Source: Escherichia phage JLBYU43. From it: a stretch of 64,000 nt of DNA. Made by a program: the position numbers and the translations under genes. Shown piece by piece: positions 939 through 37,995 of this stretch. The stretch is from sequence record NC_105512.1; one strand, 5' to 3'. The notes below the pieces were generated by a model that ran no database searches, was not told where the DNA came from, and saw only the letters and a program-made list of their open reading frames with translations. Position 1 is the stretch's first letter. Each line of letters starts with the position of its first letter.

Positions 939-1331
939 TTAAAGACCAAAAGCAAGAGCATCGGCGATAAAACTAATATCCTCGCCGGATACACTGGAAC
1001 GAATGCCAGCGCAGGTGTATACCTTTGCACTGGTCAATTGATCATCAAGGCAGGCGAGGCAAGGCGCGACTACTGCAAAAGCTAAACCGGATTTTACGGC
1101 GTCGATGATAATCGTTTCTTGTTTCATCGTGTCAACATAAACACCTTTTGCTTTAATATGGCTTGTTAGTTTGCCTTGCATATATGCAAACGTTGTTACC
1201 TGTAGCGCCTCGTTAAAGTCTAGCAGTTCATCAATAATATGACCCGATTCAACGTGATAACGCTCGCCATTAGAATAAACCAGAACAATGGAAGATTGAG
1301 CGCGATCGAATGGAATATTTTGCTTTTTCAT
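939..1331 (-). CDS. hypothetical pre-early protein
   Basis: 130-aa ORF with the conserved TAATCCCTTAA-GGAG leader upstream. Confidence 0.55.
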   Translation of the reverse strand: MKKQNIPFDRAQSSIVLVYSNGERYHVESGHIIDELLDFNEALQVTTFAYMQGKLTSHIKAKGVYVDTMKQETIIIDAVKSGLAFAVVAPCLACLDDQLTSAKVYTCAGIRSSVSGEDISFIADALAFGL

Positions 1332-1368: not shown

Positions 1369-1659
1369 TTATTTAATTTCAATACTAGCTGAATGGTTAG
1401 TTAATTCAACTGGTACATTAAATGATTCTTGTGAAAGGGTGTAACAATCAATAGTGATAAGAGAATCACAACCGATAATTATTACCCCATTATAGGCCAT
1501 TACTATAAAATCCCCTTTCCTGATTGGGTAATCGGGATAATCGTAACAATCAGAGCAAGCGCGGTAAACATGGTTATTTAAATATGCGTCACTGATTGGA
1601 ATATCAGATAATAAAAGGGATTTAGGCGAAAAGTCATTAATAGGTAGTACAATATTCAT
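1369..1659 (-). CDS. hypothetical pre-early protein
   Basis: 96-aa ORF in the leftward pre-early gene array. Confidence 0.5.
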   Translation of the reverse strand: MNIVLPINDFSPKSLLLSDIPISDAYLNNHVYRACSDCYDYPDYPIRKGDFIVMAYNGVIIIGCDSLITIDCYTLSQESFNVPVELTNHSASIEIK

Positions 1660-27750: not shown

Positions 27751-27825
27751 TGGTACCCAATCTAGGTTACGATCCTAGGTCTGAGAGTTATCGGCTCTCT
27801 GTTCTACCATTGAACTAATCGGGCT
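27751..27825 (-). tRNA. tRNA-Ile (GAU)
   Basis: perfect D-arm and anticodon stem, encoded CCA; unusual T-loop ATCGTAA. Confidence 0.5.
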
Positions 27826-28390
27826 TTTTAATACTTTTGGGATCTTTTCCTGTTAAGGCTTTATATCTTTTTCTTAAGCCATTATCAGAATAACCAAGTT
27901 CTTTAGCTGCTCTGACCCAGGAATAGTTAGATACCCAATATTCAATTTGTTCAGCAGATACACTATTATCTTTTACTTTTGACTCGCTATAATGTTTAAG
28001 ACAATAAGTAGACTTACCCGCTATTCTTATTCCACAGACTTTGCAAAAACTTTGTTTGGGCGGAGATATTCCCCTATCAAAACAAGTTTTCTCATAATGA
28101 TCCAGTTTAGACCTCACTATCAGGTTATCTAAATCATTATTAGATATATCTGTATCATCGTGATCTACTTCTAAATCAGAGGTTAATGAGGGTAGATCTT
28201 TATATACTCTCGCTAATGCTCTGCTTAGTAGTATATTTTTAGTTCCATTTTCGACGCCGAAATATTTATACCCAGTAGTATTAGTACGTATACTAAGTAA
28301 TTTATTACTTATTTTGGAATATACTCTACCCTCTCTAGAAATTAAATAATCTGGATACTCTGGTATTTCCTTAAATTCTGTTAAGTCCAT
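27815..28390 (-). CDS. HNH homing endonuclease
   Basis: NUMOD4-like N-terminus and HNH motif (EVDHDD...N). Confidence 0.7.
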   Translation of the reverse strand: MDLTEFKEIPEYPDYLISREGRVYSKISNKLLSIRTNTTGYKYFGVENGTKNILLSRALARVYKDLPSLTSDLEVDHDDTDISNNDLDNLIVRSKLDHYEKTCFDRGISPPKQSFCKVCGIRIAGKSTYCLKHYSESKVKDNSVSAEQIEYWVSNYSWVRAAKELGYSDNGLRKRYKALTGKDPKSIKKPD

Positions 28391-30255: not shown

Positions 30256-30350
30256 TGGAGGTAGGTAAGGGGATCGAACCCTTACACCGTATCACTACGA
30301 TCAACCGATTTCAAGTCGGAGTCCAGCGCCAGCCATTGGATTGACCTACC
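30256..30350 (-). tRNA. tRNA-Ser (UGA), long variable arm
   Basis: perfect acceptor GGTAGGT/ACCTACC, CCA encoded, loop CTTGAAA, 95 nt. Confidence 0.55.
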
Positions 30351-30362
30351 GTATAAATTGTT

Positions 30363-30456
30363 TGGCGGAAAAGATGGGAGTTGAACCCATAAGGCGGTAT
30401 TGCTACCACTCAACCGATTTCCAATCGGGTTTAGTCACCAGTCTATTTGCTTTTCC
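30363..30456 (-). tRNA. tRNA-Ser (GGA), long variable arm
   Basis: perfect acceptor GGAAAAG/CTTTTCC, CCA encoded, loop TTGGAAA. Confidence 0.5.
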
Positions 30457-31027
30457 GTTGTTCTGTTAATACTTTTGGGCTTAATCCGGTTAGTTTAGTA
30501 TATCGTCTACGTAAAGTGGACTCTGATACTTCTAGATCTTTAGCTGCCTTAACCCACCCCATTAATAATACCTTTTCAGTTATGTCTTCTAAGGACAATT
30601 CTGGTTTTATTAACTTTCCTGTAGGTTTTGGCTTACAATTTGTACATGTTACTGATCTCTGAAGCATTAGATTTCCACATAAGGGGCAAGGTACTCTACT
30701 ATCAGACCATCCATTATCTTTATTAGTTTTCTTCTGATGTTCTATTTTTGATAAAACTTGAAGATTATCTTTAGATAGATTCAGCCTATCTCTATCCTTG
30801 TGATCTACTTCTAATTCAGGGTCAAATAGATTATATAAGTCCCCAAATACATGAGAAATAATTCGGTGTATAAGTACCGAAGTTTGCTTACCATTTATCT
30901 GTAATTTTACAGCAGGGTATCCATCAACTATATATCTTGATAAAATTTTATTAGTAAATGTAGATAACACATCCCCTGTTTCATTTACTAAATACCCTGG
31001 TGCATCTTTTATTGGTACAAACTGCAT
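30443..31027 (-). CDS. HNH homing endonuclease
   Basis: NUMOD4-like N-terminus, HNH motif EVDHKDRDRLN, Cys-rich zinc ribbon. Confidence 0.7.
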   Translation of the reverse strand: MQFVPIKDAPGYLVNETGDVLSTFTNKILSRYIVDGYPAVKLQINGKQTSVLIHRIISHVFGDLYNLFDPELEVDHKDRDRLNLSKDNLQVLSKIEHQKKTNKDNGWSDSRVPCPLCGNLMLQRSVTCTNCKPKPTGKLIKPELSLEDITEKVLLMGWVKAAKDLEVSESTLRRRYTKLTGLSPKVLTEQRKSK

Positions 31028-31924: not shown

Positions 31925-32002
31925 TGGTGGATTGCCTGGGATTCGAACCCAGAACTGACGGATTAAAGGTCCGCTACTCTTATCCAGTTGAGCTAGCAAT
32001 CC
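31925..32002 (-). tRNA. tRNA-Lys (UUU)
   Basis: perfect acceptor GGATTGC/GCAATCC, loop CCTTTAA (C at position 33), CCA encoded. Confidence 0.5.
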
Positions 32003-32466
32003 AATTTTTCTACTAATAATTTAAAAGCATCTAGTACAGGTACTTCAAACCATTCTCCAGATACTATATAATCTTTAAGAAGATTATGTAATTCTTTCTC
32101 TGTACGTCTTTTATCCGACGAAAATCTGAAATGGTATAGCTTGTAGTCTCTATTAGGTGAATAAGTTTGATAACTTGCTAACCTCTCATTCACATCTATA
32201 GTCATACCTATTTTATACATGCCTGGCCATGCTGGATTACCAATTACATATACAAAACCTTCCGTTATAGGTATTTTATGCTCCCTTTTATACTTTAAGA
32301 GATTTAAGGCTGCCATTCGATAACAGAATCTAAACTCTGAAGTTTTTAACTTACCTTCTTTACCTGAAATTTCGTTATATTTGCTCATATAAGCTCTTAT
32401 GAGCTTATCATCTATAATGAAGTTATCAGGAAGGTTTAAGGCAGATAAAACTTTATTAATTAGCAT
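31993..32466 (-). CDS. T5orf172-domain protein (GIY-YIG-like)
   Basis: motif VYVIGNPAWPGMYKIGMT...ERL...YQTYSP. Confidence 0.55.
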   Translation of the reverse strand: MLINKVLSALNLPDNFIIDDKLIRAYMSKYNEISGKEGKLKTSEFRFCYRMAALNLLKYKREHKIPITEGFVYVIGNPAWPGMYKIGMTIDVNERLASYQTYSPNRDYKLYHFRFSSDKRRTEKELHNLLKDYIVSGEWFEVPVLDAFKLLVEKLDC

Positions 32467-33193: not shown

Positions 33194-33406
33194 ATAATGA
33201 GTCAATCTAGGTAGGACTTGAACCTACTATCACTTGTGCGGATTTACGAGAACCATTCTTTCACTCGAATCGAACGAGCTTCTACCCTCGGCAAGCTGGT
33301 GTCCCCTCTCCACCACGCTAGAATGATAATTAATGCCTGCTCCTTTGAATCAAGAAGTCCACCCCGGACTTTGGGTCTTTGCAGTACATCACGCTGCTCT
33401 GATGTT

Positions 33407-33483
33407 TGGTACACCCACTAGGACTTGAACCTAGAACCCTCCGCTTAAGAGGCGGTAGCTCTAACCAATTGAGCTATGGATGT
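33407..33483 (-). tRNA. tRNA-Lys (CUU)
   Basis: acceptor ACATCCA/TGGGTGT, loop CTCTTAA, CCA encoded. Confidence 0.5.
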
Positions 33484-33489
33484 ATAATT

Positions 33490-33542
33490 TGGCGGTACTA
33501 AGGGTAATCGAAACCCTACCTCTCCCGTGACAGGGGAGTACC
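33490..33542 (-). tRNA. compact tRNA-like element without D-arm (anticodon loop GUC, Asp-like)
   Basis: 53 nt: acceptor-like stem, hairpin CTCCC-CTGTCAC-GGGAG, T-arm AGGGT-TTCGATT-ACCCT, CCA encoded; no room for a D-arm. Confidence 0.3.
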
Positions 33543-33574
33543 ATTACCAAGCCAGCCCCGATCGCATAATTTAT

Positions 33575-33760
33575 TTACTCAGCTTTGAGTTTTTCGATAG
33601 CTTCCTCAACCTCTTTTAGAGCTTCACGACGCTCTACTTGACCTTGAAGTTCTTCAAGAAGTTCAGCTTTCAGAGCCTTAATAATATTACCACGAACCTT
33701 AATATTATTAATCATATTATCACGATCAGCTTCTAGTCGAGCAATTGCACGAGTTGTCAT
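33575..33760 (-). CDS. small coiled-coil protein
   Basis: 61-aa charged ORF. Confidence 0.35.
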   Translation of the reverse strand: MTTRAIARLEADRDNMINNIKVRGNIIKALKAELLEELQGQVERREALKEVEEAIEKLKAE

Positions 33761-37393: not shown

Positions 37394-37995
37394 TTTAGGT
37401 ATTTTTAAGAACTCTCGTAAAAGTCCTTAAAGATACCCAACGGTAGGTAGGGTCAGCCCCCTCAGATTAAGCTCTGCAGCCCTTCCGTCAGACAATATCT
37501 TCCAGTTTAAGTCAAGGTGACTTTGTGGTTATGTTCTCCGTATGTGAAGAACTCGGTTAGGCTTAGGTCATGACTCCCAGCCTACTGCTGCCGCTCAACA
37601 GGAATTATCGCGAATTACCTGTACTATTGGGCACCATTAGTGACATCTCTCATGTCAGCATTTCCCACTTTGTGGATAGCTTGAAAAACTACTCCGATAT
37701 GGAGAAAGAACTTCACTATCCTAGAAATACCTTCTAAAGTTCTTCTTTAGCCTGGACATAGTTAAATCGTAATAAAACTATTCAGCAGACTAGTTGGTTA
37801 GCCTGGAACCAACTACCGCGTGGTTTAGGCAGTGCGTAACTAACCTAGGAAGCTTTTACGTTAAAAGCATCAGTTATCCAGTTCTTACCGACCGTAGGAT
37901 TCGAACCTACATCTTCCACCAGTTACGGCTTGATAATACCAATTATACTAGGACGGCAGTGTTACTACATAAGTGATTTCCACACACCACTATTA

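What the first reader, a model, noticed from the sequence alone, without database searches (positions are those of the whole stretch)
33490..33542. 53-nt D-arm-less tRNA-like minigene with an Asp (GUC) anticodon loop and encoded CCA
The element has an acceptor-like stem (GGTACT/AGTACC), a hairpin CTCCC-CTGTCAC-GGGAG whose loop equals the tRNA-Asp anticodon loop, a canonical T-arm AGGGT-TTCGATT-ACCCT, discriminator G and CCA. There is no sequence between acceptor and anticodon stem for a D-arm, and no alternative 5' acceptor strand within 100 nt. It is either a truncated tRNA pseudogene or a functional minimal tRNA-like RNA.
Basis: seen in the sequence. Interest (0 to 1): 0.5.

Follow-up and report, generated by a model that had tools for sequence, protein, structure and literature searches.

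The report
Hybrid, probably dead, phage tRNA-Asp gene
The "mini-tRNA" is the 3′ two-thirds of a tRNA-Asp gene in a T5-like phage that was spliced together by recombination from two different tRNA-Asp alleles, so its two ends no longer pair and it is most likely a dead gene left by homing-endonuclease traffic, not a new kind of tRNA.

Summary
The window is a T5-like phage with a cluster of 23 minus-strand tRNA genes. Relatives carry one of two full-length tRNA-Asp alleles at this position. Allele A is the T5 type (about 353 GenBank records). Allele B (about 66 records) almost always sits just behind an HNH homing-endonuclease gene whose stop codon lies inside the tRNA.

The window's 5′ 25 nt are allele A and its 3′ 30 nt plus downstream spacer are allele B. 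The switch lies in the 21-nt anticodon arm that both alleles share.

The hybrid's acceptor strands pair at only 4 of 7 positions. ARAGORN does not call it, and Rfam's tRNA model gives 25.6 bits (threshold 29; allele A 46.8, allele B 64.7).

The same hybrid occurs in two other phages, unannotated, so it is not an assembly artefact.

Best reading: a recombinant tRNA pseudogene, plausibly a partial homing (co-conversion) scar. This is ordinary phage mosaicism of modest interest. Function as a D-armless tRNA is unlikely but untested.

The parts
33490..33565 (-). Complete hybrid tRNA-Asp(GUC) gene, 76 nt: allele-A 5' part + shared anticodon arm + allele-B 3' part with encoded CCA. Probable pseudogene.
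   Evidence: Alignments with SuperGirl, S114 and Sw2 (allele A) and PMBT22 (allele B). Not called by ARAGORN. Rfam tRNA 25.6 bits, below the 29-bit threshold.
33541..33565 (-). Allele-A-specific segment: acceptor 5' strand GCGATCG (33559..33565), nt 8-9, and most of the D-arm (GCTG/TGGT stem).
   Evidence: Identical to SuperGirl, S114 and Sw2 allele A and different from allele B at most positions.
33520..33540 (-). The 21 nt TACTCCCCTGTCACGGGAGAG, identical in alleles A and B (anticodon stem-loop, anticodon GTC at 33529..33531). This is the crossover interval.
   Evidence: It is the only long block of identity between the two alleles in alignments A1 and A2.
33490..33519 (-). Allele-B-specific segment: end of the variable loop, T-arm AGGGT-TTCGATT-ACCCT, acceptor 3' strand TAGTACC, G73, CCA.
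   Evidence: Identical to PMBT22 and 1Sgal2PP allele B. The 100% matches to query positions 26-76 all lie in allele-B phages.
33553..33559 (-). GGGGCTG, an alternative shifted 5' acceptor strand (6 of 7 pairs with TAGTACC, one G.A mismatch), used by Rfam and relaxed ARAGORN.
   Evidence: (-16.2 kcal/mol).
33484..33489 (-). 6-nt spacer AAATTA, of the allele-B type, to the next tRNA gene.
   Evidence: Identical in PMBT22.
33407..33483 (-). Intact tRNA-Lys(CUU) immediately downstream, so probably co-transcribed with the hybrid.
   Evidence: ARAGORN. Rfam 63.9 bits.
33575..33760 (-). 61-aa ORF (DUF7337, T5 ORF064/T5.068-like) immediately upstream. In allele-B phages the HNH endonuclease gene is inserted between this ORF and the tRNA.
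   Evidence: Pfam PF24026, E = 1.2e-29. Annotations of relatives.

Best explanation
The element is the 3' two-thirds of a 76-nt recombinant tRNA-Asp gene (33490..33565, minus strand).

T5-like phages carry two old, fully functional-looking alleles of tRNA-Asp at this locus. Allele A is the phage T5 type. Allele B normally travels as a cassette with an HNH/NUMOD4 homing-endonuclease gene placed directly upstream and overlapping the tRNA's first 10 nt.

The window's gene has allele A's 5' acceptor strand and D-arm, and allele B's variable loop, T-arm, 3' acceptor strand and downstream spacer. They are joined within the 21-nt anticodon arm, the only sequence the alleles share (shown).

Because the two acceptor strands come from different alleles, they pair at only 4 of 7 positions. 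No normal cloverleaf can form, and the gene most likely no longer yields a working tRNA (inferred from structure and model scores, not tested).

The most likely origin is a mixed infection between an endonuclease-free allele-A phage and an endonuclease-bearing allele-B phage. In that scenario, a break made by the endonuclease in the 3' part of allele A was repaired from the allele-B donor. The conversion tract then ended in the anticodon-arm homology instead of extending across the endonuclease gene. The result is a homing scar without the endonuclease gene that is probably resistant to cleavage (inferred by analogy with T4/T6 SegB; the cleavage site is unknown).

For: The window is a T5-like phage with 23 minus-strand tRNA genes and no called tRNA-Asp.

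Alignment: window nt 1-46 of the gene are identical to allele A (SuperGirl, S114, Sw2), and nt 26-76 plus the 6-nt spacer are identical to allele B (PMBT22).

Both parental alleles are called by ARAGORN and score 46.8 (A) and 64.7 (B) bits against Rfam's tRNA model, with cloverleaf energies of -23.5 and -23.2 kcal/mol. The hybrid scores 25.6 bits, is not called by ARAGORN, and its canonical-register cloverleaf is -7.1 kcal/mol against a non-tRNA minimum-energy fold of -23.7.

Population counts in GenBank phages: allele A about 353 records, allele B about 66, hybrid 4 records (phagemcphageface and smaug, each with a RefSeq copy, none annotated as tRNA), reciprocal B5'/A3' hybrid none.

Allele B abuts an ORF with NUMOD4 and HNH_3 matches that other records annotate as an HNH homing endonuclease.

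The window's flanks are about 99% identical to both an allele-A phage (SuperGirl) and endonuclease+B phages (1Sgal2PP, PMBT22), so all three states segregate among near-identical genomes.

The same cassette design (endonuclease ORF ending 10-15 nt inside a tRNA gene) recurs at tRNA-Lys in 100268_sal2 and, within the window, at tRNA-Ile, tRNA-Ser and tRNA-Lys(UUU).

Literature: HNH endonucleases F-TflI, II and IV lie in the T5 tRNA cluster and account for most differences between T5-like genomes (PMC10644984). T4 SegB recognises the T-psi-C arm of tRNA genes and co-converts flanking markers (PMC2330249). T6 SegB triggers recombination at microhomologies in the tRNA cluster (PMC13096335).
Against: No cleavage site is known for this endonuclease, so its involvement is circumstantial. 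Plain homologous recombination in a mixed infection would give the same product.

The hybrid persists in at least two different genomic backgrounds: the window, and phagemcphageface/smaug, whose upstream flank is only about 70% identical. That could mean the hybrid is tolerated, formed more than once, or even useful.

Non-function is inferred from structure only. A shifted acceptor register (6 of 7 pairs) and a 6-bp D-armless register both exist. The GGTACT coincidence is uncommon (about 1.3%).

The absence of the reciprocal hybrid rests on very few events.
Confidence: 0.8

Rival explanations
1. Same hybrid, but produced by ordinary homologous recombination in a mixed infection, with no endonuclease break involved. 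This includes loss of the endonuclease gene from an allele-B phage by a double crossover with an allele-A phage.
For: Both parents exist with about 99% identical flanks. The 21-nt shared arm is the only possible internal crossover point, whatever the initiating lesion. NR01 shows that the endonuclease gene can be lost from allele B.
Against: A crossover in only 21 nt of homology is rare without a nearby break. The reciprocal product was not seen in about 420 records. The cluster is full of homing-endonuclease cassettes.
Confidence: 0.3
2. One reading: a functional about-53-nt D-arm-less tRNA-like RNA (GGUACU/AGUACC acceptor, Asp anticodon hairpin, T-arm, GCCA), processed out of the precursor and used in translation or otherwise.
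For: The 53-nt piece alone folds into that shape (-17.3 kcal/mol). The 6-bp complementarity occurs in only about 1.3% of shuffles. The element lies in a tRNA operon 6 nt upstream of tRNA-Lys. It persists in three phages.
Against: - The fold is no better than shuffles (z = -0.8).
- The acceptor and anticodon stems compete for the same CT.
- There are 0 nt between the acceptor and anticodon stems.
- ARAGORN in mitochondrial mode finds no D-replacement tRNA.
- In the 76-nt context this fold is about 9 kcal/mol above the minimum.
- The complementarity could not have been selected before the recombination, because its two strands come from different alleles.
- From general knowledge, D-armless tRNAs are known from metazoan mitochondria, which have specialised elongation factors, and not from bacteria or their phages.
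Confidence: 0.04
3. A functional but aberrant 70-nt tRNA-Asp that uses the shifted 5' strand GGGGCUG (33553..33559), with a shortened D region.
For: 6 of 7 acceptor pairs. Rfam aligns it end to end at 25.6 bits. ARAGORN at the 80% threshold or in mitochondrial mode calls it tRNA-Asp(GTC) at 33491..33560. G73, the GUC anticodon and C38 are retained.
Against: - It is below the Rfam gathering score and below ARAGORN's default and -ps thresholds.
- It has a G.A mismatch at 3:70 and two G.U pairs.
- Only 14 nt lie between the acceptor and anticodon stems, and they form no credible D-stem.
- The fold is -16.2 kcal/mol against a -23.7 minimum.
- Every other RF00005 match in the cluster scores at least 35.5 bits.
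- No compensatory changes are seen in phagemcphageface, only an extra G.
Confidence: 0.05
4. An assembly artefact: a mixed lysate of an allele-A and an allele-B phage, wrongly joined across the 21-nt identical stretch.
For: Flanks of allele-A and allele-B phages are about 99% identical, so a mixture would assemble as one genome with a bubble at this locus.
Against: The same junction is present in independently sequenced phages phagemcphageface and smaug, in a very different local background. Joining across only 21 nt would need a very small k-mer.
Confidence: 0.03
5. An intragenomic deletion between tandem A and B copies flanking the endonuclease gene in a single ancestral genome.
For: A direct repeat of 21 nt would allow such a deletion and would give exactly this product.
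Against: No precursor with an allele-A copy upstream of the endonuclease gene was seen. In PMBT22 and 1Sgal2PP the endonuclease ORF follows the DUF7337 ORF directly. Only 2 of 412 records show two places for the query.
Confidence: 0.05

Closest known systems
Phage T5 tRNA-Asp (allele A; AY587007, true position 33499..33575 of the record)
   Same: The 5' 46 nt of the window's gene (acceptor 5' strand, D-arm, anticodon arm) match the SuperGirl, S114 and Sw2 form of this allele exactly. The genomic position is the same, just after the DUF7337/ORF064 gene.
   Different: The 3' 30 nt (T-arm, acceptor 3' strand) come from another allele, so the acceptor helix is lost: 4 of 7 pairs, against 7 of 7 in allele A.
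Endonuclease-linked tRNA-Asp allele B of Epseptimavirus-like phages (PMBT22, 1Sgal2PP, IrmaTschudi, S113 and others)
   Same: The 3' 51 nt and the 6-nt spacer to tRNA-Lys are identical.
   Different: The window lacks allele B's own 5' strand GGTACTA and D-arm, and lacks the upstream HNH endonuclease gene.
Free-standing homing endonucleases in phage tRNA clusters: T4/T6 SegB (GIY-YIG) and T5 F-TflI/II/IV (HNH)
   Same: An endonuclease gene embedded among tRNA genes. The target lies in tRNA gene sequence (SegB: the T-psi-C arm). Homing co-converts flanking markers and uses microhomologies (PMC2330249, PMC13096335, PMC10644984). The allele-B cassette and three ORFs in the window have the same layout.
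   Different: The window shows only the presumed by-product, a partially converted tRNA gene without the endonuclease. The cleavage specificity of the allele-B endonuclease is not known.
D-arm-lacking mitochondrial tRNAs (for example metazoan mt-tRNA-Ser(AGY) and nematode mt-tRNAs; from general knowledge)
   Same: The 53-nt excerpt can be drawn as acceptor + anticodon + T arms without a D-arm.
   Different: There is no connector or replacement loop. The acceptor helix is only 6 bp and competes with the anticodon stem. ARAGORN's mitochondrial mode does not detect it as such. Its origin is a recombination accident, not a conserved gene.

Membership tests
Canonical tRNA (Rfam RF00005) | 7-bp acceptor stem formed by the 5' and 3' ends | tested here: not met
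   In the canonical register, GCGAUCG against UAGUACC gives 4 of 7 pairs. The shifted register gives 6 of 7 with a G.A mismatch.
Canonical tRNA (Rfam RF00005) | Score at or above the family gathering threshold, and a call by a standard tRNA finder | tested here: not met
   25.6 bits against a 29-bit threshold. ARAGORN at default and -ps settings makes no call; it calls the element only at -ps80 or -mt. Intact alleles score 46.8 and 64.7 bits.
Canonical tRNA (Rfam RF00005) | Anticodon arm (5 bp + 7-nt loop) and T-arm (5 bp + TTCRANY loop), discriminator and CCA | tested here: met
   CTCCC-CTGTCAC-GGGAG, AGGGT-TTCGATT-ACCCT, G73 and CCA are all present.
Canonical tRNA (Rfam RF00005) | Aminoacylation and use in translation | not testable with these tools
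   Needs AspRS charging assays or tRNA-seq.
D-arm-less (mitochondrial-type) tRNA | Acceptor stem joined to the anticodon stem by a short D-replacement loop, all helices able to form together | tested here: not met
   0 nt separate the stems, and GGTACT overlaps CTCCC by 2 nt. ARAGORN -mt reports 0 D-replacement-loop genes.
D-arm-less (mitochondrial-type) tRNA | Conservation of the truncated architecture across related genomes | tested here: not met
   About 420 related records carry full-length allele A or B. Only 4 records (2 phages) carry the hybrid, with no variation within the 76-nt element apart from one extra G in the allele-A part of phagemcphageface/smaug, so covariation cannot be tested.
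Recombinant (mosaic) allele / homing co-conversion scar | Two distinct parental alleles exist, and the sequence switches from one to the other within a block of shared identity | tested here: met
   Alignments A1 and A2: allele A up to 33541, shared 33520..33540, allele B from 33519.
Recombinant (mosaic) allele / homing co-conversion scar | One parental allele is physically linked to a homing-endonuclease gene | tested here: met
   An ORF with a NUMOD4 match above Pfam's cut-off (24.3 bits against 23.4) and an HNH_3 match below it (18.5 bits against 24.8) sits directly upstream of allele B and overlaps it by 10 nt.
Recombinant (mosaic) allele / homing co-conversion scar | The endonuclease cleaves the other (allele A) form, and the converted allele is resistant | not testable with these tools
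   Needs an in vitro cleavage assay. Inferred only by analogy with SegB (PMC2330249).
tRNA pseudogene | Derived from a tRNA gene but unable to form the functional structure | tested here: met
   Derivation is shown. The canonical cloverleaf is -7.1 kcal/mol against about -23 for the parents, and the minimum-energy fold is a non-tRNA rod. Loss of function itself is not measured.

The most novel reading that the evidence does not exclude
The hybrid transcript is not junk. RNase P and other processing enzymes would release a stable 53-70-nt tRNA-like RNA that keeps an intact tRNA-Asp anticodon arm, T-arm and GCCA end. That RNA would be retained because it does something other than decoding, for example acting as a decoy substrate for host anticodon nucleases or tRNA-targeting defence systems. 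Alternatively, the DNA allele could be kept because it makes the phage immune to the allele-B homing endonuclease at the price of its own tRNA-Asp.
Probability: 0.07. Interest if true: 0.6.

Novelty: new member of a known kind. Interest (0 to 1): 0.25.

Why it matters
It explains why this phage, and two published ones, appear to lack tRNA-Asp, and warns against reading the remnant as a minimal tRNA.

It is also a clean natural example of how homing-endonuclease cassettes remodel phage tRNA clusters. Each such cassette pairs an endonuclease gene with a divergent, presumably cleavage-resistant, allele of the adjacent tRNA. The crossover is confined to a 21-nt anticodon arm.

If the endonuclease link is confirmed, the hybrid would place the cleavage site in the 3′ half of the tRNA gene. 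It would also show that phages can escape a homing endonuclease by sacrificing a dispensable tRNA.

The parental states are present in E. coli K-12 phages SuperGirl (allele A) and IrmaTschudi (endonuclease + allele B), which makes this directly testable.

Tried and rejected
- **IMG/VR scans.** I scanned for the exact hybrid junction and for the reciprocal junction and found nothing. Controls showed only 15 allele-A contigs and no allele B there, so these negatives are uninformative.
- **JGI metagenome scans.** Two scans, one for the hybrid junction and one for the shared arm plus B 3′ half, found nothing, not even allele B. These are also uninformative.
- **Tandem A+B precursor.** I looked for a genome with both alleles in tandem. 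KKP_3822 turned out to have a G-rich, apparently low-quality stretch in place of the endonuclease gene, and no precursor was found.
- **T5 "second tRNA-Asp".** The T5 record's tRNA-Asp annotation seemed to indicate a second copy. It is a 68-nt annotation offset.
- **Akulenko et al. 2004.** This paper on F-TflI/II/IV cleavage sites is not in the library.
- **Literature on hybrid tRNA genes.** A search for chimeric tRNA genes as homing by-products found no description, and the only paper naming phagemcphageface is about taxonomy.
- **Terminator-like hit.** The hit at 33514..33535 is within chance expectation: 3 found against 1.3 ± 1.2 in shuffles.
- **Other relaxed ARAGORN calls.** Apart from 30256..30350 and 37885..37958 (see the items noticed in passing), the extra relaxed ARAGORN calls in the cluster, such as the 'Phe' and 'Trp' calls, have no Rfam support.

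Full report
**1. What is at the coordinates**

On the minus strand, 33490..33542 read GGTACTCCCCTGTCACGGGAGAGGTAGGGTTTCGATTACCCTTAGTACCGCCA. Two qualifications apply:
- GGTACT and CTCCC share the dinucleotide CT, so the proposed acceptor and anticodon helices cannot both form in full (6+3 or 4+5 bp).
- The unit does not begin at 33542, as shown below.

The window is a T5-like phage (Demerecviridae; the nearest relatives are Epseptimavirus-type Salmonella and Escherichia phages at 98-99% identity). It has 23 minus-strand tRNA genes between 27.6 and 38 kb. No tRNA-Asp is called by ARAGORN or by Rfam at its gathering threshold. The element sits 6 nt upstream of an intact tRNA-Lys(CUU) and just downstream of a 61-aa DUF7337 ORF.

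**2. What relatives have at this position**

Relatives annotate a full-length tRNA-Asp exactly here, and it comes in two forms.

- **Allele A** (SuperGirl, S114, Sw2 and T5 itself) is 77 nt: GCGATCGGGGCTGGCTTGGTAATGGTACTCCCCTGTCACGGGAGAGAATGTGGGTTCGAATCCCATCGGTCGCGCCA.
- **Allele B** (PMBT22, 1Sgal2PP, IrmaTschudi, S113 and others) is 75 nt: GGTACTATAGTCTAATGGTTAGGATACTCCCCTGTCACGGGAGAGGTAGGGTTTCGATTACCCTTAGTACCGCCA. It lies directly behind a ~580-nt ORF whose stop codon is inside the first 10 nt of the tRNA.

That ORF matches NUMOD4 and HNH_3 and is annotated as an HNH homing endonuclease in many records. Both alleles are called by ARAGORN. They score 46.8 and 64.7 bits with Rfam's tRNA model and form complete cloverleaves at -23.5 and -23.2 kcal/mol.

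**3. The window's gene is a hybrid**

Alignment shows three segments:
- 33541..33565 are identical to allele A (acceptor 5′ strand and D-arm).
- 33520..33540 (TACTCCCCTGTCACGGGAGAG, the anticodon arm) are common to both alleles.
- 33490..33519, plus the 6-nt spacer to tRNA-Lys, are identical to allele B.

So the true unit is a 76-nt A5′/B3′ recombinant, with the crossover inside the only 21 nt the alleles share. By accident this equals the first six bases of allele B's real acceptor strand GGTACTA. Composition-matched shuffles of the 5′ part give such a match 1.3% of the time.

**4. Can the hybrid work as a tRNA?**

| Sequence and fold | Result |
|---|---|
| Hybrid, canonical register | acceptor strands pair at 4 of 7; -7.1 kcal/mol |
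| Hybrid, shifted register (GGGGCUG, 33553..33559) | 6 of 7 pairs, one G·A mismatch, only 14 nt in place of a D-arm; -16.2 kcal/mol |
| Hybrid, D-armless drawings | -15.0 and -14.9 kcal/mol |
| Hybrid, minimum-energy fold of the 76-mer | a non-tRNA rod, -23.7 kcal/mol, no more stable than shuffles (z = +0.39) |

Rfam aligns the shifted register end to end at 25.6 bits. That is below the 29-bit threshold and is the lowest tRNA-model (RF00005) score in the cluster, where the other RF00005 matches score at least 35.5 bits. ARAGORN calls nothing at default or -ps settings. At -ps80 or in mitochondrial mode it calls a 70-nt Asp at 33491..33560 in the shifted register, and it reports no D-replacement-loop tRNA.

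On this evidence the gene is most likely non-functional as a tRNA. That is an inference from structure and not a measurement.

**5. The junction is real and rare**

| State in the GenBank phage collection | Records |
|---|---|
| Allele A over at least 80% of its length | 353 |
| Allele B at full length | about 66 |
| Hybrid | 4 (phagemcphageface and smaug, each with a RefSeq copy) |
| Reciprocal B5′/A3′ hybrid | 0 |

None of the four hybrid records annotates a tRNA at this position. The phagemcphageface hybrid differs from the window's by one extra G and lies in a very different background, with about 70% upstream identity and a different tRNA-Lys allele. The junction is therefore not an assembly artefact of this genome. 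It has either arisen more than once or moved between backgrounds.

IMG/VR and the JGI metagenomes hold too few relatives to add anything.

**6. How it probably arose**

The window's flanks are about 99% identical both to SuperGirl (allele A) and to 1Sgal2PP and PMBT22 (endonuclease + B). Three states of the locus therefore segregate among near-identical genomes, which is the usual signature of homing-endonuclease gain and loss.

The cassette design, an endonuclease ORF ending 10-15 nt inside a divergent allele of the downstream tRNA, recurs in several places:
- at tRNA-Lys in 100268_sal2; phagemcphageface has that Lys allele without the endonuclease
- in the window, as HNH/NUMOD4 ORFs running into tRNA-Ile and tRNA-Ser
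- in the window, as a T5orf172 (GIY-YIG-like) ORF running into tRNA-Lys(UUU)

NR01 carries allele B without the endonuclease but keeps the last 12 nt of its ORF, in a T5-like flank. This shows allele replacement followed by endonuclease loss.

Published work supports this general picture:
- It places HNH endonucleases F-TflI, II and IV in the T5 tRNA cluster and attributes most differences between T5-like genomes to such genes (PMC10644984, PMC3326045).
- It shows that T4 SegB recognises the T-psi-C arm of tRNA genes and co-converts neighbouring markers (PMC2330249).
- It shows that T6 SegB triggers recombination at microhomologies in the tRNA cluster (PMC13096335).

I therefore favour a partial homing event. 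A break in the 3′ part of allele A was repaired from an endonuclease+B donor, and the conversion tract ended in the anticodon-arm homology. This gives an endonuclease-free hybrid that carries allele B's T-arm and is probably resistant to cleavage. The absence of the reciprocal hybrid fits this weakly, because that product would keep both the endonuclease and its presumed target.

Endonuclease involvement is inferred. Plain recombination in a mixed infection gives the same product and cannot be excluded.

**7. Comparison with known things, and novelty**

The element is not a member of the tRNA family by the family's own threshold, and it does not meet the defining features of D-armless tRNAs. 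It is a recombinant of two known phage tRNA-Asp alleles. Endonuclease-driven mosaicism of T5 and T4 tRNA clusters is well known. This particular hybrid, and the fact that it explains the 'missing' tRNA-Asp in three phages, does not seem to have been described.

I rate it a new member of a known kind and of modest interest. The residual novel possibility is a stable tRNA-like RNA with a non-decoding role, or an allele kept for endonuclease immunity. That possibility is not excluded but has no positive support.

Noticed in passing
window 27815..28390 (-), 30443..31027 (-), 31993..32466 (-): Three ORFs end 10-14 nt inside the 5' end of a tRNA gene (tRNA-Ile, tRNA-Ser(GGA), tRNA-Lys(UUU)). The first two match HNH_3 (the first also NUMOD4) and are 43% and 36% identical to the allele-B endonuclease. 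The third matches T5orf172/MUG113 (GIY-YIG-like). The layout is the same as the endonuclease + tRNA-Asp allele-B cassette.
   Followed up: partly
L024 (Salmonella phage 100268_sal2) 551..1105 and 1091..1168; L005 519..595: A second HNH endonuclease (annotated F-TflII) sits between an intact allele-A tRNA-Asp and a divergent tRNA-Lys(CUU) allele, whose 5' end it overlaps by 15 nt. phagemcphageface carries that divergent Lys allele without the endonuclease, right after its hybrid tRNA-Asp.
   Followed up: partly
L023 (Salmonella phage NR01) 1189..1275: Allele B without an endonuclease gene. It is preceded by AAAAAGTTAAAG, the last codons of the endonuclease ORF. Its discriminator is C instead of G (…AGTACCCCCA). 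Its flanks match phage T5, which has allele A there.
   Followed up: partly
L001 1202..1276 (allele B); window 33501..33517: Allele B's T-stem closes with U53-A61 instead of the almost universal G53-C61, and its T-arm reads GGGTTTCGATTACCC rather than the consensus-like GGGTTCGAATCCC of allele A. If the endonuclease recognises the T-arm, as SegB does, this could be the immunity polymorphism.
   Followed up: no
window 33204..33330 (-): The gap between tRNA-Lys and tRNA-Gly contains two isolated T-arm-like hairpins: GCTCGTTCGATTCGAG at 33264..33279 and GTAGGTTCAAGTCCTAC at 33211..33227. There is no tRNA call at normal thresholds. Relaxed ARAGORN gives only poor overlapping calls, and Rfam gives only a 5.8-bit tmRNA fragment. 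These may be further tRNA remnants.
   Followed up: partly
window 37886..37957 (-): An Rfam tRNA hit of 35.5 bits is not called by ARAGORN at default settings. Relaxed ARAGORN calls it 'tRNA-Ser(act)'. Its anticodon arm looks irregular.
   Followed up: no
window 30256..30350 (-): A long-arm tRNA-like sequence lies directly downstream of tRNA-Ser(GGA). It is found only by relaxed ARAGORN (Ser, tga) and by Rfam's tRNA-Sec model at 37.6 bits, below threshold. It is possibly a second, unusual tRNA-Ser.
   Followed up: no
L025 (phage T5 AY587007.1) 1501..1577 vs 1569..1645: In this T5 record the tRNA annotations in the fetched region (Cys, Asn, Asp, Pro, Met, Lys) are shifted about 68 nt from the genes ARAGORN finds there. 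The real tRNA-Asp is at record positions 33499..33575.
   Followed up: yes
L022 (Salmonella phage KKP_3822) 560..790: In place of the endonuclease ORF, this record has a G/T-rich, low-complexity stretch that looks like poor-quality sequence.
   Followed up: no
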